A stretch of DNA of 64,000 nucleotides, from the NCBI GenBank assembly GCA_903831265.1, contig CAIKXD010000174.1, forward strand, positions 44,064 to 108,063, read 5' to 3'. Positions 16,775-62,365 of the stretch are shown one piece after another. The stretch's first letter is position 1. Each line of letters begins with the position of its first letter. The translations under genes and the position numbers were made by a program. Below the pieces are notes generated by a model. That model saw nothing but the letters and a program-made list of their open reading frames with translations, had not been told where the DNA came from and did no database searches. This stretch comes from an uncultured Bacteroidota bacterium. GTDB lineage: Bacteria; Bacteroidota; Bacteroidia; UBA4408.

Positions 16775-19700
16775 ATGATGTTAAAAGATTTACACTGCAA
16801 AAGAGATTCAGGCAAAAGCAAATTTGGTTCTTTCCGAAATTTGTTCTCTATTTCTGTTATTACATTGATAGGGCTTATAGCGCCTGTAAAAGCTACCAAC
16901 TTTACTGTTTCCAACACGAACGATAATGGACCCGGTTCTTTCCGAGCCGCGTTAGTATCCGCCAATTTTGATGCAACCGCAACAGCAGGTTCGCCTCATG
17001 TTATTGATATGACAGGAGTGTCAGGCACTATTGTTTTAGATTCGGCTTTAGCTGATATTAGAAACCATGTAAGCATAAATGGTCCCGTTAATAATAGTTT
17101 GTCTGTTGAAAGAAATATAGCCGTTGCTTCATTCTCTGTATTATCTATTAAACCTGTTGGCTTTGCTGCCATAACGGTTCAGTTGAATAACTTAATACTT
17201 ACCAAAGGTTCAAGCTTAACAGGTGGTGGTTTATATGTTGAAAACACAAACCTTACAATTAACAATTGCCAAATTACCAAAAATTTTGTAAATAATGGTT
17301 TAGGCGGTGGTCTTTGCACCAATAACGCTAATGTAACCATCAACAATACAACAATTGATTACAACCTTAACTTAGCTGGATTGGGTGGCGGTATTTACAT
17401 GAATTTTGGCTCACTTTTAATGAACAATTGTACAGTTTTTGGCAACAGAGCTGCTATTGGGGGTGGTTTAGATAAAGCAACCATTGGAACTGTAATCATT
17501 AAAAACTGTACTTTTGCTTTTGATACAGCCGATGATGTTGCAGGTGGAATCTATATCAACCTTGGAAGTGTTGAAGCCAATAATACTATAATTACAGGAA
17601 ACACTGCTGTAAATGGAGCCAGTGCTGTTTTTGGCAACCTAGCTTCAACCAATGGGCACAATTTAGTGGACAATCCTTTAGGAATGAATTTTACAGGCAA
17701 TACTACTGGTAACTTAATAGGATTAGCGACAAACTTTGTACTAAGTAATGAATTGAAAAACAATGGTGGAGTTACCCCAACGGTTTTGCCTCTTGCATGC
17801 AGTGCAGCTATAGATGCAGGAACAAGTGTTGGAGCAACAATTACAGATCAAAGAGGGTTTGTTAGAGCAAACTTCGGAACTGCCTATGATATTGGCGCTA
17901 TAGAATACAGTGGGCCTATTGTGGAAGATTTAAATGTGTGCGGCACACAAACCATTAATATAGTTGCATCTGGCTCAACCAACTACCGATGGTATGATGC
18001 CGAAACAGGTGGAAATATTATATTAGAAGGATCAAATGTTTTAACTGTTACGGTAAGTAGCGATACAACTTTTTGGGTTGTTGATTATACTCCTGATTGC
18101 GAAAGTACCATTCGTGTTGCAGTAAATGTTAGTCAGTTTTCGCTTGCTGTGCCTCCAGTTATCTCTGCAAATGGTAATACTAGCTTTTGTCAAGGAGGTT
18201 CAGTTTCTTTAAATTCAACTACATCGCCCGATTATGTTTCATATGCTTGGGTGCCTAATGGTGAAACTACTACTTCAATTACAGCCGAAAACTCAGCAAG
18301 TTACAGTGTAATAATTACTGATATTAATGGTTGTACAGCTCAATCTAATTTAATTAATGTTTCTGCAAATCCTTTGCCAATACCAGTGATATCACCCAAT
18401 GGCTCAACGATTATTTGCCAAGGTTCAGGTGTTGTTTTAACATCAAACTTTACCACTGGCAACGTATGGAGCACAGGCGAAACAACACAAAGTATAACTG
18501 TTAGTGCTGCATCAACCATTACATTAACTGTTACAGATGCCAATGGATGTATTGCAACATCAGCACCGGTTGAGATTTCAATTGTCCCTAATGCACCTCC
18601 CGCTCCAATTATTACTGCATCTGGTAATCTTGATATTTGTGTTGGTTCAACAGTAACCCTTACCTCTAGTTATGTAAGTGGAAACATTTGGTCGCCTAAT
18701 GGAGAAATTACTCAAAGCATTGATGTAAATGCTCCTGGAACCTATGCAGTAACTTTTACCGATGCCAATGGATGTTCAGCTATTTCTCAGCCTGTTACGA
18801 TTACATTTTTACCACAACCTCAAACACCTACTGTTAATGCAAATGGCGCAACAACATTTTGTGAGGGAGGTTCAGTAGTTTTAGATGCACAACCTGCCAC
18901 AGGAAATATCAGCTGGACACCAGGAAATGTTTTGGGAGGTTCATTAACTGTAACAGCTAGCGGGAGTTATTTTGCAACTTTGACAGATGTTAATGGTTGT
19001 TCAGTTTCTTCTGCTCCAATTAATGTTGTGGTTGAAGAAAATCCAGTACAACCTTCAATAAATGCATTTGGACCAACAACATTTTGCCAAGGTAGCAATG
19101 TTACCCTTTTTAGCAGCAGTAATACAAATAATTTATGGAGCCAGGCCAACGAAACTTCCAACACGATTGTTGTTTCAAACGCTGGTTTATATACAGTAAC
19201 TGTTACCAATGTGGCAGGTTGCTCAGCAACTTCTGACCCTGTTGAAATAACAGTACTTACAAACCCAACAGCGCCTATTATTAGTGCAAATGGTCCAACC
19301 ACATTTTGTGTTGGGGGCACCGTTACTTTAACTTCAGACATCTCAAATAATATAGTTTGGAATACCACCGAAACAACTTCCAATATAAATGTTTCACTTC
19401 CTGGTGCTTATAGTGTAATTACCACCGATGTTAATAACTGTAGTTCTCAATCAAATGTAATTAATGTTGTTGTTAACAATCCTGGTTTGGCGTCCATTTC
19501 TGGAAATAATCAATTTTGTGTTGGTGGCTCAACAACCTTAACTGCGGTTAATGGTTCAAGTTTTGTATGGTCGCCAACAGGCGAAACAACGCAAAGTATA
19601 TCAGTTGCTTCTCCTGGAATTTACAGTGTAACTATTTCAGGTGTAAATGGGTGTACTTCAGTTTCAGCTCCATTTTTGGTAACATCTTTTGTAAGTAATC

Positions 19701-22700
19701 CAATAACGGTTACACCAACTGGAACAGTTCAAATTTGTGATAATGGTGCTGTTACTTTAACCTCATCTGCTGCTTCTGGAAATGTTTGGTCGCCAAATAA
19801 TGAAACAACAACTTCAATATCAGTTTCAACGGCTGGTGATTACTTTGTAACATCTACAGATTTAAATGGTTGTTCAACAGTTTCAAATACTGTTACAGTA
19901 GTAGTTTTACCTGCACCACAAACACCAATCATTGATCCTGCTGGACCAATAATTCAATGTGGAGGAAGCGTAGTTTTAGATGCTGGGCTAATTCAAGGTG
20001 TTACTTATTTATGGAACGACAATATTACTACCACGCAAACAAATACAGTTTCTCAGTCTGGAACCTATAGCGTTGCCGTAACTTCAACAAATGGGTGTAC
20101 CAGTGTATCTAATCCAGTAAGTGTTTCTATTGAAGCTTTACCAATTGTTAATTTGGGGAATGATGTAACACAATGTGGAGGCACTGTTACACTAAACGCG
20201 GGCAACCAAGGCGCTACTTATTTATGGAGTAATGGGGCAACAACTCAAACTGTTGTGTTAAATGCATCAGCTTCAATTAGTGTTACCGTAACTAATACTT
20301 GTGGAAGCACTACCAGCAATACAGTAAATGTAACAATTAATAACTTACCAACTGCCGCAGTTATTAGTCCAGCTGGTCCTATTGAATTATGTAATGGAAG
20401 TAGTCAATTACTTTCTTCAAATGCAAATACGGGAAATGTTTGGTCTCCTAATGGTGAAACAACCCAAGATATTACAGTTAGCACTGCTGGAAGTTATTTT
20501 ACAACAGTAACAGATGCAAATGGTTGTTCGGCTGTTTCTAATATAGTTGTAGTTTCTGTTAGCAACCCAATTGCGCAAGTTAACATTGGTAATGATGTTA
20601 CGCAATGTGGAGGTACAGTTACTTTAAATGCAGGAAATCCGGGTTCAACATATTTATGGAGCAATGGTCTTACCAATCAAACAATTTTGGTTTCTACTTC
20701 AGGTATATATTCTGTTGATGTTACAAACGCCTGCGGCACAGTAACTAGTAATAGTGTTAATATTGTTATTAATACTCTTCCTTTTGCACCTATAATTTCT
20801 CCGGGTGGTCCAGTAGTATTTTGTCAAGGAAACTCGGTGGTGCTAAGCTCATCAGAGTTAACTGGCAATGTTTGGTCAACAGGAGCAACTACACCCTCTG
20901 TAGTTATTTCAAACAGTGGTTCATATACTGTTACATTTACCGATGCTAATGGTTGTACAGCTGTTTCAGCCCCAATAGTTGTAACTGAAGATTTTCCATT
21001 AAATGCTCCTAACTTGGGAGGCCCTTTTGTACAATGTGCCGGTTCGCTTCTTTTAGATGCTGGTAATGGTATTGGAAGTACTACTTATCAATGGAGCACA
21101 GGCGCAACTACCCAAACTATTTCAGTAAGTCAATCAGGAGTTTATAATGTTGTACTAACAAATACTTGCGGAACTGTTCAAAGCACAGACGCCCAGGTAA
21201 CAATTAATCCTATTCCTGCTGCGCCGGTAATTACGCCATTAGGTCAGACTACTTTTTGTGCTGGCGGTTCATTAATTTTAAGTTCAAATATTGCCAATAA
21301 TATTACATGGAGTACAGGCGAAACAACGCAAACAATTACAGTTACTCAAGGCGGTGTTTATTCGGTTGCTTTTAATGATGGTAACAATTGTAGCAGCAGC
21401 TCTTCCATAACAGTAACTGTTCAAAATCCTCCAATTGCAACAGATTTAGGAGGTCCTTTTTCACAGTGTGGTGGCAGTGTAACATTGGATGCTGCAAACG
21501 CAGGACCTGGTAACTTGTATTTATGGAATAACAATGCTACAAGTCAAGTTTTAACTGTTCAACAAAGTGGAACTTATTTTGTAACTATTGCTAACACTTG
21601 CGGATCGGTGCAATCAAGTTCTGCAGTTGTAAATATATTAACTGTACCACCTGCGCCAGTAATAACAGCAAGCGGTTCAACAACCATCTGCTCTAATGAT
21701 TTTGTAACTTTAACAAGTGATAACCAACAAAATTATTTGTGGAGTAATAATGAAACTACACAAAGTATAACAGTAAACCAATCTGGAAATTATTCTGTAA
21801 CATTTACAGCTGCTAATGGCTGTAGTGCCACTTCGAATGTCATTCCTGTAAATGTGCAACTTCCACCTACAGCAACAGACCTAGCTGGTCCATTTACACA
21901 ATGTGGGGGTACAATTACTTTAGACGCTGGTAATGCAAATATTGGTGCAAGCTATTTGTGGAGCAATGGAGAAACTACTCAAACTATTGTGGTTTCAGCC
22001 TCAGGAAACTATTCGGTTCAAATTTCAAATGCATGCGGAACCGTTGCAAGTACTATTGCCAATGTGACCTTGTTTAATACTCCAAATGCCCCTGTTGTTT
22101 CAGCTAATGGGGTTACTAACTTCTGTCAAGGAGGATCTGTTGTTTTAACCTCTAATATAGCAAATGGAATTCAATGGTCTAATAATGAAAGTACGCAATC
22201 TATTACTGTTTCAGCTTCAGGAGATTATTCTGTATTATTTACGGATGCTAATGGATGTACCGCTACTTCAAATATTATAACAGTAGTTGTAGACGCTCCA
22301 TTGGTTGCTCCTAATCTTGGTGGTCCTTTTACACAATGTGGTGGTACTATTACTTTAGACGCTGGTAATGCCTCAACTAACAACAATTACTTGTGGAGTT
22401 CTGGCCAAGTATCGCAGAGCATTAATGTAAATACAAGTGGTAATTATTTTGTTACCATCACTAATTCTTGTGGAAGTGTTACAAGTACAACAGCCGTTGT
22501 AACCATAAACCCATTACCGCAAACGCCAATAATTTCAGCAAGTGGTCCTTTAGTATTTTGCCAAGGTGGTGATGTAACTTTAACTTCAAGCAGTGCAACT
22601 GATAACCTGTGGTCAAACGGTTTAACCACTCCATCGATAACAGTAAATGCATCAGGTATTTTTTCAGTGAGTGTTGTTGATGCCCTAGGATGCAGTTCAA

Positions 22701-25700
22701 CTTCATTGCCAACTACTGTAGTTGTTGATGAGCCTCTGTCAACAGCTATTACGCTTGGTGGCCCTTTTACACAGTGTGGAGGTACAATAACTTTAGATGC
22801 TGGAAATGCTAATGTAGGCGCTTCTTATTTATGGAGTAACGGTGCAACAACTCAAACTATCTCTGTTTCGCAAAGTGGTAATTATTCAGTGGTGATAAAC
22901 AACGCCTGTGGAACTGTAACAAGTGATACAGCAAGTGTTACTATTTCACCTGCAGCGCAAACACCTATCATCACTGCAAACGGCCCAGCTACTATTTGTC
23001 AGGGGGATTCAATTGTTTTAACATCCAGCGAAATTAACAATATTCAATGGACTCCAGGTGCAGCAACTACACCAAGTATTACAGTAAATCAATCAGGTGT
23101 TTATACAGTAACTGTTGATAATGGAAATGGATGTACTGCTGTTTCCCAGTCGTTCACCGTAACACTTTTGAATAATATTACACCTGTTACTTTGGGTCAA
23201 GATATTACACAATGTGGTGGAAGCGTTAATGTTGATGCTGGTGCTCAAATAGGCGCTACTTATGTTTGGACAGATTTAACAGGAAACAATCAAATCCCCG
23301 GCGCTCAGATTGCAAATTTAACCAGCAGTGGAACTGTATTTGTTGTGGTAAGCAATCAGTGTAATAGCGAAACCAGCGATACAATAAACGTCTTAATAAA
23401 CCCATTGCCAACCACACCTTTAATTCAAGCCAACGGACCAACCAGCTTCTGTGTTGGCGACTCAGTGCAATTGGAGGTAACAAATGTTCAACAAGCTCAA
23501 AACATAATTGTAAATGGTCAGTTTGATGGCGGAAATAGCGACTTTACAACACAATATATTTATCAAAACAATTTACAACCAGAGGGAACAACTTTTGTAA
23601 CCTCAAATGCGAGCTTAAACCACCCAGCATTTGTAGGAACTGGCCAAGGTGGCGTTGGTAACTTCTTGGCGGTAAATGGCTCCTCAAATGGCGGTCAGTT
23701 TATATGGAAACAATCAATAACAGTTATTCCTAATCAAACATATGATATTTCGCTTTTTCTTGCTTCTTTGGTTGCCAATAATAATTCAGGCAGTATACAA
23801 TTAAGAGTTGATGGCGTAGATGTTGGGCCTGTTATGAATTGTCCAGGCCCTGTAAATACATGGGTTCCTTACAGTAATTTATGGACAGCAGGCGCTTCTA
23901 GCTCAGCCAGTGTTTCATTGCACAGTATGAACAGTGCGTCTGGTGGTAATGATTTTGCTGTTGACAACATTCAAATGATTTGTACTAGTTGTGCAGGAAG
24001 TTTAAACTATCAGTGGAATACCAATGAAATCGGCACTTCAATTTATGCCGATACAACAGGTTCTTATACAGTTACTTTAACCGATGCGAGTGGATGTTCT
24101 GCCACCTCATTACCTATTGATGTAATTGTGCAAACACCGCCAACGGTTAATTTAGGAGGACCATTTACACAATGTGGTGGTTCTGTAACTTTAGATGCTC
24201 AAAATCCTGGATCTACTTATTTATGGTCAAATGGTGCAACAACTCAAACAATAGCAGTTTCTGCGCTTGGTACAACTTCTATTACTGTAACTGTTAATAA
24301 CACGTGTGGTTCATTTACTTCGCAACCAGCCACTGTAACTATTTTAGCAGCTCCTTCGCAAGCAACAGTAACAGCTAATGGCTCAACTACATTTTGCCAA
24401 GGCGATTCGGTAGCTTTATTTGCTAGCGCTGGAGCCTCTTACTTATGGAGTCCAAATAATGAAATAAGCCAATCAATAGTTGTTAATCAATCGGGTAATT
24501 ATTCCGTTCAAGTAACTGCAGCAAACGGATGTACCTCAGTTTCAAATGCTATAGGAATAACAGTGCTATCTGGTGCAGGAAGTCAAGCTCAAATTACAGC
24601 CAATGGTCCTACTGAATTCTGTATTGGGGGCTCAGTTTTGTTGTCATCAAATAATCCAACGGGAAATCAATGGAGCAATGGTTCAAATCAACAAAGCATA
24701 ACTATTTTTAATGCCGGAACTTATATACTTAACGTGGCCAATAGCAATGGTTGTTCTTTAGGCAGCGATACGGTAATTGTTACTACTTTATTTAACCCAA
24801 CAGCGGTAATTACTTTAAGCAACTCTCCACAGCTTTGCGCAGGTGATTCAATTATATTGACTGTTAACGAAAATGCATCATACCAATGGACACAACTTTT
24901 AAACAATCAAAGTATTAATATTGGTACAGATTCTACTATCACTGTTGACTCTGCAGGCACATACACAGTAATAGTAACAGGAGCAAATGGTTGTACAACT
25001 ACTGCTCAATCTGTTTCGGTTTCTACAGCACCTGCGGCTCAAGTTCCAATTATAACAATAAATGGTCAATTATCTTGCGGCGCGGGATCAGTGGAGTTAG
25101 TAGCAACAGGAGGTTCTAATTTCCAATGGAGTAATGGCTCAAACTCTTCATCTATAACAATTACTCAACCAGGTTTATTTGCGGTTACTTCACAAAATAT
25201 TTTTGGGTGTGTTGCCACATCGGATTCTGTTTGGATACCACAGGGATTAAGTAATATGCAAATTAGTTTAGATGCCTTGATTTATGATAATGGATTTTGG
25301 AATGTACGTTGTCCGAAAGGGAGCGATGGGCAGATTACAGCAGTTGTAACAAATGGACAAGAGCCATACACTTATGCATGGGCTACGGGCGAAACTACAC
25401 AAATGATTAGTGGCCTAAAAGCAGGTGAAGATAATGTGTATAAGGTTATTGTAACTGATGCTTTTGGCTGCACTGTTGAGGGATCTACCACATTAACTGA
25501 ACCTCCTGCTGCTTTAGAAAAAATGCCTAGAGGTTTTTCACCTGATGGAAATGGGGTTAATGATGAATTAATTATACCTGGAATTAAAGTATTTGTTACT
25601 AACAATGTTACCATTTTTAATAGATGGGGGAATGAAGTTTACAACAGCGAAGGTCCATACCAAAACGATTGGCTAGGCCGAGGAAAAAATGGAGAAGATT

Positions 25701-40252: not shown

Positions 40253-40279
40253 AATTAGGATTTTAAGGAAGTGTTTAAT

Positions 40280-40419
40280 AAGGAATGATTAGTATGGCAC
40301 GAGTTTGAAAACTCGCGCCAGTATTACACGAGTTTGATGGGCATAAGTAAAATGATTGAAAGGCACGTTTAAAAGGAATGATTAGCATGGCACGAGTTTG
40401 AAAACTCGCGCCAGTATTA
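40280..40419 (+). repeat. Two copies of a 47-bp element (40280..40326 and 40373..40419, 46/47 identical), each containing a 9-bp-stem hairpin TGGCACGAG-tttgaaaa-CTCGCGCCA. A third partial copy of CACGAGTTTG lies at 40327.
   Basis: Seen directly in the 346-bp intergenic region upstream of the pentaheme cytochrome gene. Confidence 0.7.
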
Positions 40420-45769: not shown

Positions 45770-45859
45770 TTGTCATATCTATAATTTTAATGCTCATACA
45801 TTGGCAGGTGCTTATCAGTCATGCTCAGAATGCGCGCGCCAGAATTGGAAATTGTTATA

Positions 45860-45982
45860 CCAATGTGATTTATAAATTATGCCAATAATTTAAAATCTTA
45901 CATTGGTAAATGCCGATCGGAAATAAGTTTGGGACAAATGCCGTGAAACTAATTTGGACCATTACTTATTTCACATCGGTAT
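45860..45982 (+). repeat. 123-bp direct repeat, copy 1 (about 97% identical to copy 2 at 47208..47330). It is internally dyad-rich (CCAATGT..ACATTGG, palindrome CCGATCGG, GTGAAA..TTTCAC, threefold AATGCC).
   Basis: Direct comparison of the two stretches shows 4 mismatches in 123 nt. Confidence 0.85.
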
Positions 45983-46110
45983 TACATTTTTTGGAATACA
46001 AATTGTCACTAGCGTTTTGATGTTGTAAAATAAAAGTTCTTTCAAGTAGTGTCAATATTGAGTTTTAAAGGTTTTTAGTTTGGAAACGATTTAAACTTCA
46101 AAAAAAAATT

Positions 46111-46755
46111 CTAAAAATTAAACAAATCACACACCTCCATACCATCTTGTAAGTGAAAAGCATGAATTCCCGCTTTTTGTGCACCTTCAATATGTTGTGG
46201 CGAGTCATCAATAAATAAAGTAGTTGATGGATTTAAATTGTTATCAGATAACACCTTCTCAAAAATTTCAAGATCGGGTTTACGCATCTTTATTTCATGA
46301 CTCAAATAAACCTTTTGAAAAATAGACTTGAAATTATTCCAGCCATATTCGCCTTCTATAGCGGCCGAAAATGCTTTTTCGTGAATAATATTGGTGTTGC
46401 TTAATAAATACAAAGGTTTGTGCAGCTGTAACTTTTTTAGCATCTCCACTCTGTTTGAAGGCATTTGCAGCAACATACTGTTCCAACATGCGTCAATAGT
46501 GTTGTCGTTTAAATTAATGCCCGAAAGGGCCCTTAATTCATCTCTAAATTTAGTTTCGCTAATTAAACCCTTCTCTAAATTATCAAACAAATTATTTTGC
46601 TTGGCTTTAGAAAATAATTCATCAAAGTTTTTAATACCTTGTTTTTCAAACGCATCGCGGGTTTTATGGTAGTCAATATCAATAATTACCGCTCCAAAAT
46701 CGAAAATAATAGCATCAAAATGCTTGTTTTTTAGCTCAGAATGAAGAAGTTCCAT
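46111..46755 (-). CDS. HAD-superfamily hydrolase (subfamily IA-like phosphatase).
   Basis: DxD motif IIFDFGAVIIDIDY (motif I). S/T motif II LSNTN. K...DD motif IV (FIDDSPQHIEGA). Confidence 0.75.
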   Translation of the reverse strand: MELLHSELKNKHFDAIIFDFGAVIIDIDYHKTRDAFEKQGIKNFDELFSKAKQNNLFDNLEKGLISETKFRDELRALSGINLNDNTIDACWNSMLLQMPSNRVEMLKKLQLHKPLYLLSNTNIIHEKAFSAAIEGEYGWNNFKSIFQKVYLSHEIKMRKPDLEIFEKVLSDNNLNPSTTLFIDDSPQHIEGAQKAGIHAFHLQDGMEVCDLFNF

Positions 46756-46840
46756 TTTTTTATTTTGTTTTAGCCCGCAAAAGTATAATTTTGCGCCCGC
46801 TTTAAAACTTAAATGCGTTTAAAAGTGATTTAAATTAACA

Positions 46841-46914
46841 GGGCCTATAGCTCATTCGGTTAGAGCAACTGACTCATAATCAGTAGGTGCTTGGTTCGAT
46901 TCCAAGTGGGCCCA
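46841..46914 (+). tRNA. tRNA with CAU anticodon, either elongator tRNA-Met or tRNA-Ile2 (lysidine).
   Basis: Acceptor GGGCCTA/TGGGCCC. D-arm AGCTCATTCGGTTAGAGC. Anticodon stem ACTGA/TCAGT with loop CTCATAA. TPsiC GGTTCGATTCC. No C1-A72 initiator feature. Confidence 0.8.
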
Positions 46915-47207
46915 CAAAAAAAGAGCGGGAATAAATGCGTAAAGCGTTTCTTTCCGCTTTTTATTTTGGCTTTATCCCGCCCAAGTTTTAGTAAAAAAGG
47001 AGGCCTGATGCTTCTTGTTAACTAGCTTTTACCTTTTACTTTCGTTCACAAAAGCAAGCGTTAATTTTATATACTTTTGTTTCCTTTATTTAGGCAATTT
47101 CAATAGCCACTAAAAATTTTATGAAATTGGTGTGGATGCTATTTTTGCACATCAAATTTTTTAAAATAAATTGGTGAGCTTTAAAATAATATCGATTTGA
47201 AATAATA

Positions 47208-47330
47208 CCAATGTGATTTATAAATTATGCCAATAATTTAAAATCTTACATTGGTAAATGCCGATCGGAAAAATGTTTGGGACAAATGCCGTGAAACAAA
47301 TTTGGGCCATTACTTATTTCACATCGGTAT
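47208..47330 (+). repeat. 123-bp direct repeat, copy 2, ending about 100 nt upstream of recQ.
   Basis: See copy 1. The two copies bracket a 1225-bp segment carrying the HAD hydrolase gene and tRNA-Met. Confidence 0.85.
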
Positions 47331-49852: not shown

Positions 49853-49936
49853 TGATTAATTTCAAATATTGCAGCGTTCATTAAGTCCTCACTGCGAACT
49901 TTGCGGTTAATCTGTGAGCCGGAACATTTTCAAATT

Positions 49937-50068
49937 GCTTCATTGGCACATTGTCTCATTGGCACATGGCTTCATCGGCACATTGTTTCATTGGCACATT
50001 GGCACATTGTTTCATCGGCACATTACTTCACCGACACATTGGCACATTGCTTCATTGGCACATTGATT
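49937..50068. repeat. Degenerate tandem repeat (minisatellite) built on a GGCACATTG(y)TTCAT core, about 8-10 units.
   Basis: gcttcattggcacattgt / ctcattggcacatg / gcttcatcggcacattgt / ttcattggcacattggcacattgt / ttcatcggcacattac / ttcaccgacacattggcacattgc / ttcattggcacattg read directly. Lies between convergent recQ and the polysaccharide deacetylase gene. Confidence 0.8.
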
Positions 50069-50104
50069 TTCATTTTCAAACTATTTCATTAGCTAATTAA
50101 CTAA

Positions 50105-50986
50105 TCACGGATGAGAAGCTTTCAACAATCTTTCAAAGGAAAGTCTCGCTTTGCGCCATCTAAGCCTTTCAATATGTCCTAATGTGTGTATAATATTTGG
50201 AATGGTCCAAAAGCACTCTACATTAAATCTTTTAATGAAATAACTGTTTTTATTAAGGCAGTTAGATCCAGGGAAGGTAGAATGAAAGTAATTGTAGTTC
50301 TTGATAATCAGTTTCATTTCATTTTCTCCCACGCTTAACAATGAATTGAAGGGCGCACAAAAGTTTTCGATATTTATTTTTAATTGCGACTCAATCATGT
50401 TTTTACTGGTAATAATTTCTCTATTTAATATTTCAGTGTTAGTTGTATTTGCCTTTAAAGTATGACTCATCGTATGTGAGCCAACCAGGTGCCCATTAGC
50501 AACAATTACTTTTAATTCATCCCAGCTCAGTGCTGTAAAATCCTCTTGTTGAGAATCAATTAAACGGTTAATCTCACTTCTAATATGGGTGGTATAATAC
50601 TCTTTTTGTTTTGCAGCTTCAATAAAATTTGGCACAACAAAGAGTAGCGCTTTGATATTGTACTTATCTAATACTTGTAAGGCATATTTATTGTTAGATA
50701 GGCCGTCATCAAAGGTAATAAGCAACTTTGGCTTTTTGCTTTCTAATTTATTAGCATAAAAGTTTTTAAGATCATTTGGACTAATAATAGAAAAATGCGC
50801 TCTGTAAAAATCAATCTGCTTTTCAAAATTATCTATAAATTTTAAGGGCGTAGAATGGTAGTTAAGCACAATTAAATCATGCTTGTTAAGATAACCATTG
50901 ATGTTAAAAAATGGTTGCTCAATACTTCCTAAAATTGATTTAATTAATTGCGCTTTTGTATGAATTGATTTGTTGTAGAATTCCAT
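50105..50986 (-). CDS. Polysaccharide deacetylase (NodB homology, carbohydrate esterase family 4).
   Basis: TFDDG motif (LITFDDGLSNN) and the HT..H His motif (GSHTMSHT). Confidence 0.8.
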   Translation of the reverse strand: MEFYNKSIHTKAQLIKSILGSIEQPFFNINGYLNKHDLIVLNYHSTPLKFIDNFEKQIDFYRAHFSIISPNDLKNFYANKLESKKPKLLITFDDGLSNNKYALQVLDKYNIKALLFVVPNFIEAAKQKEYYTTHIRSEINRLIDSQQEDFTALSWDELKVIVANGHLVGSHTMSHTLKANTTNTEILNREIITSKNMIESQLKINIENFCAPFNSLLSVGENEMKLIIKNYNYFHSTFPGSNCLNKNSYFIKRFNVECFWTIPNIIHTLGHIERLRWRKARLSFERLLKASHP

Positions 50987-53261: not shown

Positions 53262-53340
53262 TTGTGGCTTGTTTCCATAAGCTTAGCGCTATAGCTATCG
53301 TCCGTCCAACCCTTTACTTACAATACAATTAAAATTCAAT

Positions 53341-53443
53341 AAAAAAGCACGTGCTAAAATTAACAAGTGCTTTTTATAAATTCTATATTTGGCTATTTAG
53401 CAAAAATGATCAAAGGCCATTTTTAAGTTGTCTGCAATCATTT
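53341..53443. repeat. 103-bp direct repeat, copy 1. It contains a terminator-like hairpin (GCACGTG...CAAGTGC) plus an antisense duplicate of the last 14 codons and stop of the bacilliredoxin-like gene (MIADNLKMAFDHFC*).
   Basis: Near-identical to 54741..54843. The reverse complement of 53395..53439 translates to MIADNLKMAFDHFC*. Confidence 0.85.
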
Positions 53444-53584
53444 TCCTTAATAAAACTTACTGTTTTTAGCTGTGATGCAAATCAAAGGTGATGTACAGAT
53501 TGGTACAAATTGAAACACAAAATTTCAATTTGCACCAAAAGCCTTTTAATCATATATTTGTAGCTGATAATCAAAACATTAATA

Positions 53585-54733
53585 ATGTATATTAAAAGAA
53601 GTTTAGAGATCGAACTAACGAAATACAGAGAAATATTTCCTGTTGTCGCCCTACTTGGTCCTCGTCAATGCGGTAAATCAACCCTAGTAAAACACCTATT
53701 ATTGGCTCAAGAAAATACCATTTATTTAGATTTGCAAAATGCTGAAGATTTAAACAAACTGAATGATCCACGCTTATTTTTTAAGTTAAATGAAAGTAAA
53801 ATAATTTGTATTGACGAAATACAATTGATACCTAATTTATTTGGTGTTTTAAGAAGTATTGTTGACGAAAACAGACAAAATGGGAAGTTTATTTTATTGG
53901 GTTCTGCCTCTCGCGAATTGGTTCAAAAAAGTTCAGAGTCATTAGCCGGTAGAATTGGCTATTTGTCATTAAGTCCTTTCATGTTAGAAGAACTCAAGTC
54001 GGTTGAACTAATAAATTTTTGGAATAGAGGCGGTTTTCCCGATAGTATATTAGCAAACAATGATGAATATAGCTATATCTGGCGAGATAATTTTGTAAAA
54101 ACATACATCGAAAGGGATATTCCTCAATTGGGATTTCAAATTCCGCCATTACAATTAAGAAGATTTCTTACTATATGTGCGCACTTTCATGCACAAAGCT
54201 TAAACCTTAGTAAGATGGCAGGAGTTATTGATATGACTCATACAACCATGCGTAAGTATGTTGACCTTTTGGAACAAACTTATATTTTAAGAACATTGCC
54301 ACCCTATGAAACGAATGTAAAAAAACGCTTGGTAAAATCACCAAAAGTGTATTTGCGAGACAGCGGAATTTTGCATTTTTTGTTAGGAATTAAAAGTGCA
54401 GATGTGCTTTTTATGCATCCTATTTTTGGCCCATCTTGGGAAGGGCTGGTGATAGAGCAATTAATAACCTCACTCAACGTCCCTGCTTATTTTTACCGCA
54501 CTGCAAAAGGAGAAGAAATTGATTTAATCTTGGAAATTAATAATGATATAGTAGCTATAGAATGTAAAGCATCCTCTGCTCCACAGCCCACTAAGGGCTT
54601 TTATAAAGCGCTTGAAGATATAATGCCTACAAAAACATTTATTGTTGCGCCTATTACTTCTTCTTCCTATTCATTGGCAGAAAATATTACAGTTACAAGC
54701 CTTACAGAACTTCTGGATGTTTTAAAAACTTAA
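53585..54733 (+). CDS. AAA-family ATPase with C-terminal DUF4143 domain (AAA_14/DUF4143 type).
   Basis: Walker A GPRQCGKST. Walker B IICIDEIQ. About 380-aa architecture typical of the archaeal-ATPase-like DUF4143 family. Confidence 0.75.
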   Translation: MYIKRSLEIELTKYREIFPVVALLGPRQCGKSTLVKHLLLAQENTIYLDLQNAEDLNKLNDPRLFFKLNESKIICIDEIQLIPNLFGVLRSIVDENRQNGKFILLGSASRELVQKSSESLAGRIGYLSLSPFMLEELKSVELINFWNRGGFPDSILANNDEYSYIWRDNFVKTYIERDIPQLGFQIPPLQLRRFLTICAHFHAQSLNLSKMAGVIDMTHTTMRKYVDLLEQTYILRTLPPYETNVKKRLVKSPKVYLRDSGILHFLLGIKSADVLFMHPIFGPSWEGLVIEQLITSLNVPAYFYRTAKGEEIDLILEINNDIVAIECKASSAPQPTKGFYKALEDIMPTKTFIVAPITSSSYSLAENITVTSLTELLDVLKT

Positions 54734-54740
54734 ACTACAA

Positions 54741-54843
54741 CAAAAAAGCACTTGCTAAAACTAACAAGTGCTTTTTATAAATTCTGTAAAGAGCTATTTA
54801 GCAAAAATGATCAAAGGCCATTTTTAAGTTGTCTGCAATCATT
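54741..54843. repeat. 103-bp direct repeat, copy 2. It holds a bidirectional terminator hairpin (GCACTTG-ctaaaacta-CAAGTGC) and the genuine 3' end of the minus-strand bacilliredoxin-like gene.
   Basis: Seen directly. Copies 1 and 2 bracket a 1297-bp segment carrying only the DUF4143 ATPase gene. Confidence 0.85.
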
Positions 54844-55211
54844 TGAGGGCTTTTGCCTTCAATGTGGTGCCTTTCTATAAAATGAACCAATTTACCGTCT
54901 TTAAATAAGGCAATTGATGGTGATGATGGAGGATAAGGTAACATAAAATTACGGGCCGAAGCAACTGCTTCTGTATCAAATCCTGCAAATACGGTAGTTA
55001 ACTTTTCTGGCTTCTTGGCATTTTCTAACGATAACTTAACACCCGGACGTGCCGCGCCCGCTGCACAACCACATACAGAGTTTACAAATACTAAAACAGT
55101 TCCACTGGTAGCGTTTAATGTTTTTTCTACTGCATCTGCATTGGTTAAATCTTCAAAGCCTACTTGGGTCATTTCAGCTTTCATTGGTTTTACTAATTGT
55201 TCTGGATACAT
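54798..55211 (-). CDS. Bacilliredoxin-like thiol-disulfide oxidoreductase (DUF1094, YphP/YqiW/BrxC-like) with CGC redox motif.
   Basis: 137 aa. VFVNSVCGCAAG with the C-G-C active site characteristic of bacilliredoxins in a thioredoxin-like fold. Confidence 0.6.
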   Translation of the reverse strand: MYPEQLVKPMKAEMTQVGFEDLTNADAVEKTLNATSGTVLVFVNSVCGCAAGAARPGVKLSLENAKKPEKLTTVFAGFDTEAVASARNFMLPYPPSSPSIALFKDGKLVHFIERHHIEGKSPQMIADNLKMAFDHFC

Positions 55212-55291
55212 CTTAAATTCAAAGTTTAAGGTTATTTATTATTTTAATTGATGATATCATTTCACAAACCATGCCTCAAAGGCTAAGTCTG

Positions 55292-55858
55292 TTAAACTGT
55301 CATTATTTCTTTTTCTTTTTGTTCAATGTGCTTATCTGCTTTGGCAGAAAAATTATCAGTAATAATTTGCACTTTAGCTTCAGCAGCTTTGGTTAAATCT
55401 TCGGGCACACCATCTTTATTCATTTTTTTTAATGTTTCATTGGCATCACGTCTTAAACTGCGTAAAGTAACTTTACAATGTTCAGCTTCAGCTTTTGCTT
55501 TCTTTACCAAGTCTTTTCTTCTTTCTTCGGTTAATGGAGGTACCATAATGCGAATAAGTACGCCATCATTCTGCGGGTTAAAACCTAAATTGGCAGCCAT
55601 TATAGCTTTTTCAATAGGAGTAATACTCGATTTTTCCCAAGGTTGTACCACCAATGTTCTTGCATCTGGGGAACTTATGCTTGCTACATTGCTAATTGGA
55701 ACATATGAACCATAATATTCAACCTGAATACTTTCCAGCATCGAAGGGTTAGCCTTTCCAGCTCTAACTTTAGTTAATTCCGATTCTAAATGACTAATAG
55801 CTTTATTCATTTCAGCCTCTGTATGATCAAGGCATGCTTTTATTTTTTCTGCGCTCAT
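55292..55858 (-). CDS. frr: Ribosome recycling factor.
   Basis: 188 aa with conserved RRF sequence throughout (e.g. SIQVEYYGS...SPDARTLVVQPWEKS). Confidence 0.9.
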   Translation of the reverse strand: MSAEKIKACLDHTEAEMNKAISHLESELTKVRAGKANPSMLESIQVEYYGSYVPISNVASISSPDARTLVVQPWEKSSITPIEKAIMAANLGFNPQNDGVLIRIMVPPLTEERRKDLVKKAKAEAEHCKVTLRSLRRDANETLKKMNKDGVPEDLTKAAEAKVQIITDNFSAKADKHIEQKEKEIMTV

Positions 55859-59525: not shown

Positions 59526-60446
59526 TTATTCAACGATTAACTTTTCAAAGTATATATTGTTGCTAGTTTTAACTTCAACAAAATATATGCCCTGGCTTTG
59601 TGTTTCTAGTTCAACTGTTAAGTTAAAATTATCTTTAGCTATAATTTTAGAATTAATTAATTGTAAATTACTGTTATAAACATTAATGCTTTTTACTAAT
59701 GATTTTGAGATATTAATGTCCACTTCTCCAATTGAAGTTGGGTTGGGTGATAAAATTAATGAAGGTTTTTTGTTTGCAATTAATGCTATACCAACAGAGG
59801 TATTTACAATTGGAAAAATGGCATAATCCACATTTAATGGCCAATTATATTTTAGTGTGTACCAATTTCCAGAGGCATCTTGTTCCCACGATTGCTCTCT
59901 AGTGCCACTATCGCCATCTTTATTGGTGTATAACGCAATTGTATCTAAAGCATTTAGTTGGTCAAAATCAATTCCAATGGCAAAATAACTATCAGTAAAT
60001 ATGGGGCTATTATAAAGCAAAAGATTGCCGTTTAACGTGTCTATGTCGCTAACTTTAATAGAGTCTTTATAAAAAACTGTTCCGGGGCAGGGTACTGCAT
60101 TGCTTACAATGCTATTTCGGCCTAAATTGTCAATATGGTAGAAATTAACTCCTACATAAGAAGAATCGTTTAATGAGTTAAAAGACTTATACCCAAAATG
60201 TATCATCACAGCATATATGTTGCAAACATTACCTGCATTAAATTCCTGTGCCTTAGATCGGTCTAAATAGGCATTGTTCCCAGAAACAAATCCACCTCCA
60301 GGCGATGCATAGGTTTTGTAGGACAGACTGTCAAAATATTGTTTATTGAGTGTATCGTTTTCTGATAAAAGAGAAAGATGATTGCAATAAGCAATACTAT
60401 AATTACATGTTAAAATAATGTATAGCGCAAATAGGAATCTAGGCAT
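59526..60446 (-). CDS. Secreted protein of unknown function with C-terminal T9SS sorting domain.
   Basis: Signal peptide MPRFLFALYIILTCNYSIAYC. C-terminal ILSPNPT...INVYNSNLQLI...GIYFVEV...EKLIVE. Confidence 0.55.
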   Translation of the reverse strand: MPRFLFALYIILTCNYSIAYCNHLSLLSENDTLNKQYFDSLSYKTYASPGGGFVSGNNAYLDRSKAQEFNAGNVCNIYAVMIHFGYKSFNSLNDSSYVGVNFYHIDNLGRNSIVSNAVPCPGTVFYKDSIKVSDIDTLNGNLLLYNSPIFTDSYFAIGIDFDQLNALDTIALYTNKDGDSGTREQSWEQDASGNWYTLKYNWPLNVDYAIFPIVNTSVGIALIANKKPSLILSPNPTSIGEVDINISKSLVKSINVYNSNLQLINSKIIAKDNFNLTVELETQSQGIYFVEVKTSNNIYFEKLIVE

Positions 60447-60472
60447 AGTATGTTAATGGATTGTGCAAAAAT

Positions 60473-60504
60473 AAGAAAACCCACCAAATAGGTGGGTTTT
60501 CTTA
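60473..60504 (-). terminator. Rho-independent terminator (usable bidirectionally) downstream of the 613-aa T9SS cargo gene.
   Basis: AAGAAAACCCACC-aaata-GGTGGGTTTTCTT perfect 13-bp stem with flanking A/T tracts. Confidence 0.7.
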
Positions 60505-60523
60505 TTAATTTATTAAGTTAATT

Positions 60524-62365
60524 TTACTTTGTAACAAACATTTTCTTTGTTACACTTTTACCATTGCTAGTTAAAGTATAATTATAAGCACCAGCAGCAA
60601 AATCTGCAGCGTTAAGCACTATATTATGATTTCCAGCACTTAAATTTTGATTCTCGATAACTCTAACAATACGTCCAGCTAAATCAGTAACAGTAAAGTT
60701 AACGTTTGAAGCTTCAGTTAACGTGTATTGAATTGTAGTTTGAGTATTAAATGGATTTGGTTGATTTTGAACAAGTGTAATGTTTTGCGCATCAAGCTCT
60801 TCAACACCAACTGTATTGTGTACATTTAATCTAACCATTGGAGTTCCACCTAACAAAAACCATTCTGGTGTAGCAGCATCTGTATCATACAAAAATGCAC
60901 CTAAGCCATCTTCAAAATCAGTACCACTTGCTAAAACTAATGGCAAACCGCCTACATAAGAAACAGCAGCAACGTAAAATTTAGTTGCAGAAGTTAATTG
61001 AACAGGACTTGTTAACTTAATAGTAACAAATTTAGGGTTAAGATTAGGAGCAGCAGCGCTTCCTGTAGTATTAATTTGTGAAGCTTGGATTGTGTAATCA
61101 GCTGAAGAACCAATTTCTACTGGATCAGTACCACTGAAGTCATAAATTTTTACACTTGCAATTGTACCTGCATCTGTTGTGCCTTGCATTGCAAAAGATA
61201 CTGATGTAGCAAAAGCATCAGTTTGAATTTCAAAAAGATTACCAATCACATAGGCGTTTCCGTCTGTTCCTGTTAAACCATTATAAAGACCGTTACCAGT
61301 ATATATGCCATTGTCTCTTGCATAAATTGAATCTGTTACATTTACAGTAAATGTTTTGCTGTTATCACCAGGATTTGCATCAATTTGACCAGATTTTGCT
61401 GTAATTGTAACATTTAATGGACCAATTGCATTTGGTGTAAACGTATTAACAATAAACAAAGAATCAGATTGACCAGGATTTAAAGTTACTACTGCACTTG
61501 AATCTGAAAATAAAGGAGCACTCACTGTTGCTTTCAATGCAGCATCACTTTGGCTTGCTCCACCTTGGTTAGAAACATAACCTGAAAAAGAAAAAGGTTG
61601 AACTTGTTCTAAAGGCACACGAGAATATTCTGTGCTAAAGGTATTTCCAATTTGCAAATCAAAGTCAGGTGCGTCTTCAAGGCTTATATCATCAACCATC
61701 CAAGCGTAAGCACAACCACCATTAGTACCAAAAGCAGCAGTAGTACTGTAAAAAGTAAATCTAATCCAAACTGTAGCTTGATTACCAGCAACAGAAGTGA
61801 TGTTTAGGCTTACCACTTGAGGATTTGTAGTAGATTGATTAGTTGCGAAATTTGAATTAACCTGAAATTTAGTCCAAGATGTACCATTGGTTGATACTTC
61901 TACAAATGTGGAATCGAAATAATTTCTGTAGTTTTCCTCAAATTTTAAAATAACGCCTGGATGTCCAGAGCAGTCAATTGATTGGGCAGTGGTTAAATGA
62001 GCATTTTGATTTCCAGAACATAATAAGTCTGAATCAAAAAGAGCAAAACCATTTGCAGCAGACGTAGAAGCAATTCCTGCAATTGGAAAAGTACCCGCAG
62101 GGACACCTGTACCAATTACCCAATTGTCAGCATTTCCTGAGCTGTTCGAAATAGTCCAATCTGCAGGAACCGAAAGGTCGTTAGTCCATATTACAGCACG
62201 ATTTGAGCTCGTTTCTTGTGAAATTGCTCCTGTGGCTTGTATAATACTATTGTTTTTTTTGATTTGTTTACCAATGTTATCATTGGCAGCATCAACTTTG
62301 GTTAAAAACGCAGAACCCAACAAGATACTTGCAGAGATCAGCGCAATAGAGTAGTTTTTTTTCAT
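60524..62365 (-). CDS. Secreted protein of unknown function (613 aa) with C-terminal T9SS sorting domain.
   Basis: Signal peptide MKKNYSIALISASILLGSAFLT. C-terminal LVQNQPNPFNTQTTIQY...VTDLAGRIV...GAYNYTL...KKMFVTK. Confidence 0.55.
   Translation of the reverse strand: MKKNYSIALISASILLGSAFLTKVDAANDNIGKQIKKNNSIIQATGAISQETSSNRAVIWTNDLSVPADWTISNSSGNADNWVIGTGVPAGTFPIAGIASTSAANGFALFDSDLLCSGNQNAHLTTAQSIDCSGHPGVILKFEENYRNYFDSTFVEVSTNGTSWTKFQVNSNFATNQSTTNPQVVSLNITSVAGNQATVWIRFTFYSTTAAFGTNGGCAYAWMVDDISLEDAPDFDLQIGNTFSTEYSRVPLEQVQPFSFSGYVSNQGGASQSDAALKATVSAPLFSDSSAVVTLNPGQSDSLFIVNTFTPNAIGPLNVTITAKSGQIDANPGDNSKTFTVNVTDSIYARDNGIYTGNGLYNGLTGTDGNAYVIGNLFEIQTDAFATSVSFAMQGTTDAGTIASVKIYDFSGTDPVEIGSSADYTIQASQINTTGSAAAPNLNPKFVTIKLTSPVQLTSATKFYVAAVSYVGGLPLVLASGTDFEDGLGAFLYDTDAATPEWFLLGGTPMVRLNVHNTVGVEELDAQNITLVQNQPNPFNTQTTIQYTLTEASNVNFTVTDLAGRIVRVIENQNLSAGNHNIVLNAADFAAGAYNYTLTSNGKSVTKKMFVTK

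What the first reader, a model, noticed from the sequence alone, without database searches (positions are those of the whole stretch)
53341..54843. DUF4143 AAA-ATPase gene inserted as a 1.3-kb cassette bracketed by 103-bp direct repeats that duplicate the 3' end of the neighbouring gene
Positions 53341..53443 and 54741..54843 are near-identical. Copy 2 is the real 3' end and bidirectional terminator of the minus-strand bacilliredoxin-like gene. Copy 1 carries a duplicate of that gene's last 14 codons, stop codon and terminator hairpin, stranded upstream of the ATPase gene. The only cargo between the repeats is the DUF4143 ATPase. This is the footprint expected from site-specific integration (attL/attR-like duplication) or duplication-generating insertion of a single-gene module. 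No recombinase is present within the cassette. A second, architecturally similar module lies at 45860..47330 (123-bp repeats, 1.2-kb cargo). This suggests a recurrent, uncharacterised cassette-insertion mechanism in this genome.
Basis: seen in the sequence. Interest (0 to 1): 0.6.

Follow-up and report, generated by a model that had tools for sequence, protein, structure and literature searches.

The report
Repeat-flanked, strain-variable defence-candidate gene cassette
A single candidate anti-phage gene sits between two copies of the tail end of a neighbouring housekeeping gene; sister strains lack exactly the gene plus one copy, and species-level relatives share an almost identical gene, so it is a real gain-and-loss cassette, but it needs no exotic mechanism and the supposed second example is just a miniature transposon.

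Summary
Positions 53329-53443 and 54730-54844 are direct repeats (115 nt, 91%). Copy 2 is the true 3' end (14 codons plus stop) and terminator of the bacilliredoxin gene (brx). Copy 1 is a stranded duplicate. The cargo is one AAA_14+DUF4143 ATPase-nuclease, which belongs to PADLOC candidate defence family PDC-S01.

The predicted empty site exists. Three conspecific metagenome strains carry GT-repeat-brx and are exactly 1401 bp shorter, that is, the cargo plus one repeat.

The arrangement is not recent. The same junction occurs in a lineage whose GT is only 83% identical. A lineage at about 80% nucleotide identity has the ATPase beside brx with a decayed displaced fragment.

The cassette is about 96% identical across these lineages (dS 0.14) while neighbouring core genes have dS above 1.1. 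It has therefore been exchanged horizontally.

No recombinase, terminal inverted repeats or short fixed duplication are present. Repeat haplotypes assort freely among strains.

Best reading: the cassette arrived on DNA carrying its own brx 3' end. It is now lost, converted and swapped by general homologous recombination through the repeats.

The "second module" is refuted. Its repeats are two copies of a 124-nt MITE, one of which is absent in a sister strain.

The parts
53329..53443 (-). Repeat copy 1. This is a displaced, non-functional duplicate of the brx 3' end: 14 codons at 53400-53441, stop at 53397-53399, plus the terminator hairpin at 53342-53375. It now lies downstream of the glycosyltransferase gene.
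   Evidence: In empty-site strains the single copy carries copy 1's left flank and continues into the brx body.
53444..53501 (+). 58-nt spacer (X58) between copy 1 and the palindrome. It travels with the cassette in lineages W and M, but is replaced by unrelated sequence in lineage F.
   Evidence: It is 95-98% identical in L084, L107 and L108-L113 and absent from L004 and L114-L118.
53502..53536 (.). Palindrome GGTACAAATTGAAA-CACAAAA-TTTCAATTTGCACC, with 14-bp arms and a 7-nt spacer, ending about 48 nt upstream of the ATG. It marks the left end of the unit shared between lineages. It is inferred to be an operator or protein-binding site of the cassette.
   Evidence: Fold z-score -4.6. Homology between the window and L004 ends at its outer edge. 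Related palindromes lie upstream of 13 of 17 homologues at 39-77% amino-acid identity in unrelated contexts.
53553..53560 (+). TATATTTG, a match to the Bacteroidota-type -7 promoter motif TAnnTTTG, 24 nt upstream of the ATG. This is an inferred own promoter of the cassette.
   Evidence: Read from the sequence. The stretch is conserved in L004, L101 and L102 upstream regions. The motif identity rests on general knowledge and was not tested.
53585..54733 (+). Cargo gene: a 382-aa AAA+ ATPase (AAA_14) fused to a DUF4143 PD-(D/E)xK nuclease domain, belonging to PADLOC family PDC-S01. The last two codons and the stop codon lie beyond the point (54724) where three different flanks are joined in different lineages.
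   Evidence: Pfam. PADLOC PDC-S01, 3.5e-87. Invariant Walker A, Walker B, E286, D313 and E326-x-K328. AlphaFold model with pLDDT 76, matching ORC/Arch_ATPase/STAND ATPases and Can2/Card1 nucleases. Junctions.
54730..54844 (-). Repeat copy 2. This is the functional 3' end of brx (stop at 54798-54800) plus the bidirectional terminator hairpin at 54743-54776, which also ends the ATPase transcript.
54798..55211 (-). Bacilliredoxin gene (brx, PF06491). This is the host gene whose 3' end is duplicated. In this window its body is about 5% diverged from other strains of the same species, which indicates an imported recombination tract.
   Evidence: One search shows 24-25 differences per 500 nt at 54824-55323 against L128-L130, compared with 2-5 per 500 nt between those strains.
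53444..54844 (+). The 1401-bp presence/absence unit (equivalently 53329-54729). It consists of the cargo plus one repeat copy and is missing from empty-site strains.
   Evidence: The GT stop is at 11951 in L128 and at 10550 in L129, in a shared coordinate frame.

Best explanation
The unit is a self-contained, integrase-less, single-gene cassette. It consists of a palindromic operator-like site, its own promoter and one ORF encoding a PDC-S01 ATPase-nuclease, which is a candidate anti-phage gene.

How it got there (inferred): it sits at the 3' end of brx because the incoming DNA carried its own copy of the brx 3' end and terminator. Integration through that homology could have been either (a) a Campbell-type single crossover of a circularised fragment, or (b) homology-facilitated illegitimate recombination. 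Either route left brx intact and displaced a second copy to the far side, creating the 103-115-bp direct repeats. This happened before the present lineages diverged.

What happens now: general (RecA-type) homologous recombination acts on the repeats and on the cassette itself.
- It loops out exactly cargo plus one repeat, producing the empty sites.
- It converts one repeat copy to the other.
- It moves the cassette between strains and between species-level lineages. The roughly 47-nt stretch of brx coding sequence that is identical in all lineages serves as a portable address.

Shown: the repeats, the empty site, the conservation of the junction, the horizontal exchange and the absence of a recombinase.
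Inferred: the original integration route, the RecA dependence, the operator role of the palindrome and the defence function.
For: 1. Precise presence/absence polymorphism. Three conspecific strains (flanks 98.6-99.1% identical to the window) lack exactly 1401 bp. They retain one repeat with copy 1's left flank and copy 2's right flank.
2. Age. The identical junction ATCATTT|TCCTKAATAAAAC occurs in L084 (about 96% identical) and in L107, whose GT is 83% identical. L004 (core genes about 80% nucleotide identity) has the ATPase beside brx plus a decayed 27-nt displaced brx fragment with a lost stop codon.
3. Horizontal exchange. Between the window and L004, ATPase dS is 0.14. For brx it is 1.16, for tsf 1.5, and frr and pyrH are saturated. 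Nucleotide identity is 91-100% across 53502-54700 and 70-87% outside. In L107, X58 plus the cassette are 94-97% identical while copy 1, the intergenic spacer and GT are 80-88%.
4. Homologous recombination acting on the repeats. Three repeat haplotypes occur in all combinations at copy 1 and copy 2. In L119 the two copies are nearly identical. SNP patches are mosaic along the locus, and the window's brx body is an imported tract.
5. No dedicated machinery. Genes within +/-10 kb are GcvP, T9SS proteins, ribosomal proteins, tsf, pyrH, frr, GT, GNAT, a deacetylase, recQ and HAD. There are no terminal inverted repeats. Identical proteins always recur in one and the same genomic context.
6. Other contexts of PDC-S01 homologues look like products of recombination, not transposition. 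L103-L106 carry a 300-nt partial tandem cassette at 87% identity. L102 carries an upstream DUF4143 remnant. Only 1 of 10 other contexts (L094, 27 nt) has flanking repeats.
Against: - The direction of the polymorphism is not resolved. On the brx side the empty strains nest among occupied ones, which favours loss. On the other side they carry a private 4% divergent patch in GT.
- No circular or excised form could be looked for, because no reads are available.
- The unit shared at 96% between the window and L004 ends sharply at the palindrome and at the ORF end. It does not end inside flanking homology. That fits a defined element better than random recombination tracts.
- L094's exact 27-nt flanking repeat lies in a short operon spacer. 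It is hard to explain by carried-along homology and looks like a target duplication.
- RecA dependence is an inference only.
Confidence: 0.55

Rival explanations
1. It is a decayed or cis-mobilisable site-specific integrative element (CIME-like). Under this reading the repeats are attL and attR. An integrase encoded elsewhere, on a related integrative element that targets the brx 3' end, excises and integrates the cassette in trans.
For: The direct repeats duplicate a gene's 3' end. There is a precise empty site with a single copy. The same target is used in at least three species-level lineages. CIMEs are defined as elements that keep attL/attR but have lost their integration genes (PMC5704250).
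Against: - There is no integrase in the cassette or within +/-10 kb.
- The first downstream ORFs of brx that I read (10 of 69 extracted from other Bacteroidota loci) look like housekeeping genes with no evident integrases. This was judged by eye from the sequences, with no family search.
- The repeat haplotypes give no sign of a fixed crossover core.
- The displaced fragment in L004 has a different end point from that in the window.
Confidence: 0.2
2. The cassette mobilises itself. Under this reading the ATPase-nuclease, with its winged-helix region, binds the conserved palindrome. It then promotes a homing-like or staggered-cut insertion that generates long, variable target duplications of 27-115 nt.
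For: - The unit shared between lineages is bounded by the palindrome and the ORF end.
- The palindrome arms are conserved across homologues of 39-77% identity.
- The PD-(D/E)xK catalytic residues are invariant.
- L094 has an exact 27-nt duplication abutting the ORF end.
- Many homologues sit on roughly 1.3-1.4-kb contigs that break at the cassette ends.
Against: - Only 2 of 11 testable contexts have flanking repeats.
- No second palindrome or half-site occurs at the right end.
- There are no multi-copy identical cassettes, and identical proteins always recur in the same context.
- The different flanks at the ORF end are explained by an indel of a separate small repeat (Y-R2), which has a further copy elsewhere in L004.
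- The short contigs are what a 100-nt repeat plus strain mixtures would produce in an assembly.
Confidence: 0.1
3. It is a purely vertical, ancient segmental duplication with no mobility. Under this reading the ATPase has always been there, and the repeats are a relic.
For: The arrangement is shared by diverged lineages with diverged repeats.
Against: Empty sites exist within the species. The cassette's dS is about 10-fold lower than that of adjacent core genes. All more distant relatives lack it.
Confidence: 0.03

Closest known systems
PDC-S01 (PADLOC phage-defence candidate; COG1373, AAA_14 + DUF4143 ATPase-nuclease)
   Same: It has the same two Pfam domains. It matches the PADLOC HMM strongly (3.5e-87). 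It has invariant Walker A/B and E...D...ExK residues. It is a single gene and is strain-variable. The literature describes the family as an ATPase fused to a PD-(D/E)XK domain, very abundant and experimentally unvalidated (PMC12988326; PMC3424549).
   Different: Nothing differs at the protein level. The repeat-bounded gain/loss unit and the conserved upstream palindrome are not mentioned in the passages I read in the papers found with 'DUF4143', 'PDC-S01' and 'COG1373'.
CIMEs and decayed integrative elements at gene 3' ends (for example attL/attR-flanked remnants of ICEs/IMEs in streptococci)
   Same: Direct repeats made from the 3' end of a conserved gene flank the cargo. No integrase is inside. 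A precise empty site exists. The host gene is kept intact by the element-side copy.
   Different: No cognate integrase or parent element is known for this site. The repeat is long (103-115 nt), its copies recombine and convert freely, and no fixed core is evident. The cargo is a single gene with its own promoter.
Campbell-type single-crossover integration and homology-facilitated illegitimate recombination of foreign DNA
   Same: Both produce an insert flanked by direct repeats of the homologous segment, in which one copy is donor-derived and the other recipient-derived. Both allow precise loop-out. This matches the 91-99% identity between copies, the empty site, and the partial tandem cassette in L103.
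   Different: These are generic processes and not a family of elements. Here the product appears to persist and spread between species-level lineages at one address.
Integron gene cassettes
   Same: They are single-gene modules associated with an imperfect palindrome, and they are gained and lost as units.
   Different: The palindrome here is 5' of the ORF, next to the cassette's own promoter, and not a 3' attC. There is no attI or intI within 10 kb. The flanking repeats are host-gene sequence.
IS elements and MITEs
   Same: They show presence/absence polymorphism with flanking duplications.
   Different: The ATPase cassette has no terminal inverted repeats, no transposase, a 103-115-nt duplication and a single copy. 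By contrast, the 124-nt elements at 45858-45981 and 47206-47329 do meet the MITE criteria.

Membership tests
PDC-S01 / DUF4143 AAA+ ATPase-nuclease | N-terminal AAA_14 P-loop domain and C-terminal DUF4143 domain | tested here: met
   PF13173 at 4.5e-29 (residues 19-137) and PF13635 at 2.5e-44 (residues 176-330), both above their gathering scores.
PDC-S01 / DUF4143 AAA+ ATPase-nuclease | Match to the PADLOC PDC-S01 models | tested here: met
   PDLC04790 at 3.5e-87, plus six further PDC-S01 models.
PDC-S01 / DUF4143 AAA+ ATPase-nuclease | Intact ATPase and PD-(D/E)xK catalytic residues | tested here: met
   G25-x-R-Q-x-G-K31-S-T, D77-E78, E286, D313 and E326-x-K328 are invariant in 29-30 homologues. 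The fold matches ORC/Arch_ATPase and Can2/Card1.
PDC-S01 / DUF4143 AAA+ ATPase-nuclease | Protection against phage | not testable with these tools
Site-specific integrative element (GI/IME) or its decayed form (CIME) | Flanking direct repeats (attL/attR) that include the 3' end of the target gene | tested here: met
Site-specific integrative element (GI/IME) or its decayed form (CIME) | Empty site with a single att copy in relatives | tested here: met
   L120/L129, L124 and L126.
Site-specific integrative element (GI/IME) or its decayed form (CIME) | Integrase or recombinase gene inside the element | tested here: not met
   The ATPase is the only ORF. No recombinase Pfam family occurs on any gene within +/-10 kb.
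Site-specific integrative element (GI/IME) or its decayed form (CIME) | A cognate integrase-bearing element using the same att site in related genomes (needed for CIME status) | tested here: inconclusive
   The 10 brx-downstream ORFs that I read, out of 69 extracted from other Bacteroidota, look like housekeeping genes. This was judged by eye, without a family search. The whole genomes of this clade were not available.
Site-specific integrative element (GI/IME) or its decayed form (CIME) | Fixed crossover core within the repeat | tested here: inconclusive
   Haplotypes at copy 1 and copy 2 assort in all combinations, and there is no fixed difference inside the repeat. This fits homologous exchange but does not exclude a core.
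Transposable element (IS/transposon/MITE) - ATPase cassette | Terminal inverted repeats, a short fixed target-site duplication, and multiple dispersed copies | tested here: not met
   There is one internal palindrome only. The duplication is 103-115 nt. There is a single copy in the window and one context per identical protein.
Integron cassette | A 3' attC site, a promoterless ORF, and a nearby attI/intI | tested here: not met
   The palindrome lies 5' of the ORF next to a promoter-like motif. No integrase is present within 10 kb.
MITE (the 124-nt repeats of 'module 2') | Terminal inverted repeats, a short target duplication, no ORF, and an empty site in a relative | tested here: met
   The TIRs are TACCAATGTG / CACATCGGTA (9 of 10 complementary). 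The target duplications are TTA (45855-57 and 45982-84) and TAA (47203-05 and 47330-32). L128 lacks copy 2 precisely. The fold has z = -7.6.

The most novel reading that the evidence does not exclude
PDC-S01 cassettes could be a distinct class of integrase-less mobile modules. Each would carry a promoter, a family-specific palindrome and an ATPase-nuclease. They would spread between species either by carrying a copy of a conserved host gene end as a portable homology address, or by action of their own nuclease at staggered sites, leaving 27-115-nt duplications. That would give one of the most abundant candidate defence genes in prokaryotes its own dedicated mode of mobility.
Probability: 0.15. 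Interest if true: 0.75.

Novelty: new variant of a known kind. Interest (0 to 1): 0.5.

Why it matters
PDC-S01 is reported as one of the most abundant candidate defence systems in bacteria and archaea, yet it is unvalidated and nothing is described about how it moves (PMC12988326, PMC13356809).

This locus offers four things:
1. Natural near-isogenic strains with and without the gene, in freshwater Bacteroidota.
2. A cleanly delimited expression unit of palindrome, promoter and ORF.
3. Direct evidence that the unit crosses species boundaries while staying at one chromosomal address.
4. A conserved palindrome, which is a testable candidate operator for the protein's DNA-binding region.

It also gives a worked example of how long direct repeats made from a conserved gene's end can make a defence gene precisely gainable and losable without any recombinase.

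The result also removes a false lead. There is no genome-wide "cassette insertion mechanism" here. The second module is an ordinary MITE pair.

Tried and rejected
- Exact-sequence look-ups of the window's ATPase, GT and HAD proteins found nothing. The brx look-up found only same-strain fragments.
- The genome-contig scan with brx gave 80 loci, but only one (L004) keeps synteny. The other 79 have unrelated neighbours and no ATPase, so they are not true empty sites.
- The metagenome scan with the ATPase gave one close locus (L084). The rest were at or below 49% identity.
- Rfam gave no family for either repeat or for the palindrome.
- The PDB sequence search found no relative. NCBIfam gave only sub-threshold Hda/RuvB hits.
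- GC content shows no anomaly over the cassette.
- I considered the palindrome as a recombination site (13-14-bp arms with a 7-nt spacer resemble tyrosine-recombinase cores). I rejected this as the main reading for two reasons. It sits inside the unit next to the promoter, with no partner half-site at the other end. Also, its arms are conserved while its spacer varies across homologues, as expected for an operator.
- I considered a target-site duplication made by a transposase. I rejected it because of the duplication length, the lack of TIRs and the absence of repeats in most other contexts.
- I tried to decide gain versus loss for the empty strains from flank phylogeny. The two flanks disagree, and the population is visibly mosaic.
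- I reconstructed L004's odd layout (Y-R2b upstream, R2a downstream, a 27-nt brx fragment). It can be explained by a former tandem cassette dimer plus deletions at TTTTAA microhomology. This remains a hypothesis.
Full report
**1. The observation**

The window holds a direct repeat at 53329-53443 and 54730-54844. The longest exact shared run is 52 nt, against at most 12 nt in shuffles.

Copy 2 overlaps the minus-strand ORF 54798-55211. This ORF is a complete PF06491 bacilliredoxin (brx; E 9e-63). Copy 2 also holds a terminator-like hairpin at 54776-54743. Copy 1 carries the last 14 codons, the stop codon and the hairpin again, stranded downstream of a glycosyltransferase (GT) gene.

Between the copies lie four things:
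- a 58-nt spacer;
- a 35-nt palindrome (53502-53536);
- a promoter-like TATATTTG;
- one ORF (53585-54733, 382 aa) with AAA_14 and DUF4143 domains.

**2. What the cargo is**

The protein matches PADLOC's candidate defence family PDC-S01 (3.5e-87). Walker A, Walker B and an E286...D313...E326-x-K328 nuclease signature are invariant in 29-30 homologues.

An AlphaFold model (pLDDT 76) resembles ORC, Arch_ATPase and STAND ATPases. Through its C-terminal domain it also resembles the Can2 and Card1 nucleases. No sequence relative has a solved structure.

The literature describes PDC-S01 as an ATPase fused to a PD-(D/E)XK domain. It is among the commonest candidate systems in prokaryotes, and validation is said to be pending for most PDCs (PMC12988326; PMC13356809; PMC3424549).

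**3. Relatives and the empty site**

The source is an uncultured freshwater Bacteroidia lineage, which I call W. Independent assemblies of W show the same layout: L001-L003, L084, L108-L113, L119 and L121-L123.

A look-up of a brx allele 97% identical to the window's returned both occupied and empty strains. In L120/L129, L124 and L126 the GT stop and the brx stop are 135 nt apart. These loci are exactly 1401 bp shorter than L119/L128.

The single repeat in the empty strains has copy 1's left flank and runs on into the brx body. All of these strains are 98.6-99.1% identical to the window in the flanks.

**4. Age of the arrangement**

The junction between copy 1 and the spacer (ATCATTT|TCCTKAATAAAAC) is identical in L084 (about 96% identical overall) and in L107. 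In L107 the GT fragment is only 83% identical and copy 1 only 88% identical to the window.

The closest genome in the species-representative collection is L004. Its core proteins are 89-94% identical and its core nucleotide identity is about 80%. It has the ATPase beside brx and, beyond it, a 27-nt brx fragment that has lost its stop codon and is followed by a different terminator. Its sister contigs L114-L118 also keep the ATPase next to brx.

The duplication is therefore old.

**5. Horizontal exchange**

Between the window and L004, nucleotide identity is 70-87% in tsf, pyrH, frr, brx and the spacers. It is 91-100% from the palindrome to the end of the ATPase ORF.

Nei-Gojobori dS values:

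| Gene | dS, window vs L004 |
|---|---|
| ATPase | 0.14 |
| brx | 1.16 |
| tsf | 1.5 |
| frr, pyrH | saturated |

Cassettes fall into a W type (at least 98.8% identical to one another) and an F/M type (97-98.5%), which are about 96% identical to each other. The cassette therefore shares a far more recent ancestor than its host genomes, while staying at the same address.

**6. Recombination at the locus**

Three haplotypes of the repeat occur at copy 1 and at copy 2 in every combination among W strains. In L119 the two copies are almost identical. SNP density along 20 kb is patchy. The window's own brx body is about 5% diverged from other W strains, and the empty strains carry a private 4% patch in GT.

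On the brx side the empty strains nest among occupied ones, which favours loss by loop-out. On the GT side they do not. The direction of the polymorphism is therefore not settled.

**7. Machinery**

No gene within +/-10 kb carries a recombinase domain. The cassette has no terminal inverted repeats. Identical ATPase proteins always recur in one and the same context. Ten brx-downstream ORFs that I read from other Bacteroidota look like housekeeping genes; this was a by-eye reading with no family search.

Contexts of other homologues:
- Homologues at 66-77% identity sit between housekeeping genes such as TetR/SufD, cysS/peptidase and aspS/phoH.
- L103-L106 carry a 300-nt partial tandem cassette.
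- L102 has a DUF4143 remnant upstream.
- L094 has an exact 27-nt flanking repeat.
- Eight other testable contexts show no flanking repeat.

This heterogeneity fits recombination-based acquisition better than a dedicated transposition mechanism.

**8. The palindrome**

The palindrome has arms TGCAAATTGAAA / TTTCAATTTGCA around a variable 7-nt spacer. It lies 16-63 nt upstream of the ATG in 13 of 17 homologues at 39-77% identity. It also marks where homology between lineages stops.

Conserved arms with a free spacer, positioned next to the promoter, suggest a protein-binding operator. The protein's own winged-helix region is a plausible binder, but this is an inference.

**9. The ORF end**

Three different sequences follow ...GATGTTTTAA in different lineages. 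They reduce to an indel of a small repeat, Y-R2 (about 144 nt). Y-R2 has another partial copy elsewhere in L004. The right end is therefore not evidence for a defined element terminus.

**10. The 'second module'**

The 126-nt repeats fold into two long hairpins (z = -7.6). They are not a gene end. Each is a 124-nt element (45858-45981 and 47206-47329) with these features:
- 10-bp terminal inverted repeats, TACCAATGTG / CACATCGGTA;
- 3-bp target duplications, TTA for one copy and TAA for the other.

Strain L128 lacks the second copy precisely, reading ...ttgaCATAAgttt..., while keeping HAD, tRNA-Met and the first copy. The pair is two MITE insertions, not a cassette.

**11. Verdict**

The finding is a real, repeat-bounded, strain-variable cassette carrying a single defence-candidate gene. 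It has been exchanged between species-level lineages.

The most economical mechanism has two steps. First, DNA carrying its own brx 3' end integrated at the locus. Second, general homologous recombination through the repeats has since caused loss, conversion and exchange (confidence 0.55).

A trans-acting integrase (0.2) or self-mobilisation by the nuclease (0.1) remain possible. A purely vertical relic is excluded.

I rate it a new variant of a known kind, of moderate interest.

Noticed in passing
window 45858-45981 and 47206-47329: Two copies (97% identical) of a 124-nt MITE-like element. It has 10-bp terminal inverted repeats, 3-bp TWA target duplications and a two-hairpin fold (z = -7.6). 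Strain L128 lacks the second copy precisely. No Rfam match and no parent transposase were seen in the window.
   Followed up: yes
window 53502-53536; L094, L101, L102, L103, L087-L098 upstream regions: A family-wide palindrome, TGyAwATTsAAA-N-TTTsAATwTrCA, lies upstream of PDC-S01 ATPase genes at 39-77% identity. In some homologues the perfect arms extend to about 22 bp. It is a likely operator and is not mentioned in the passages I read from the papers found.
   Followed up: partly
window 53516-53522 vs L107:775-781 and L004: The 7-nt spacer of the palindrome is inverted between lineages. It reads CACAAAA/CACAAAG in the window and L004, and CTTTGTA in L107. This is a small hairpin-loop flip.
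   Followed up: no
window 49900-50100: A dense array of 8-nt and 16-nt units (GGCACATT / GTTTCATT) lies between recQ and the polysaccharide deacetylase gene. Strains differ here in both length and sequence (elevated differences and gaps at 49912-50323).
   Followed up: no
window 40275-40326 and 40368-40419: A 52-nt direct repeat (94%), spaced 93 nt, contains the hairpin GGCACGAGTTTGAAAACTCGCGCC.
   Followed up: no
window 54824-55323: The brx body of this particular strain is about 5% diverged from four other strains of the same species, which differ from one another by less than 1% here. This indicates an imported recombination tract directly next to the cassette.
   Followed up: partly
window ~60300-62300: A strain-variable segment. 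L130 and L131 are about 40% diverged here from the window, L128 and L129. The T9SS-tail protein gene is 357 aa in one group and 613 aa in the other.
   Followed up: no
L004:6840-6893, 8305-8461, 10385-10443; L107, L114-L117 downstream of the ATPase: A small hairpin-rich repeat (Y-R2, about 144 nt) is inserted exactly at the ATPase ORF end in lineages F and M. It changes the protein's last residues. A further partial copy lies elsewhere in L004. In L004 its copies flank the cassette, possibly as a remnant of a tandem cassette dimer.
   Followed up: partly
window 18200-25500: A very long ORF region holds many diverged ~216-435-nt repeat units, consistent with Ig-like repeats of a large surface or adhesin protein.
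   Followed up: no
L103-L106 (3615-3912 vs 3919-4218) and L102:2-265: Other PDC-S01 loci carry remnants of earlier cassettes immediately upstream of the intact one. L103-L106 have a 300-nt 5' fragment at 87% identity. L102 has a C-terminal DUF4143 fragment. This suggests repeated replacement at one site.
   Followed up: partly
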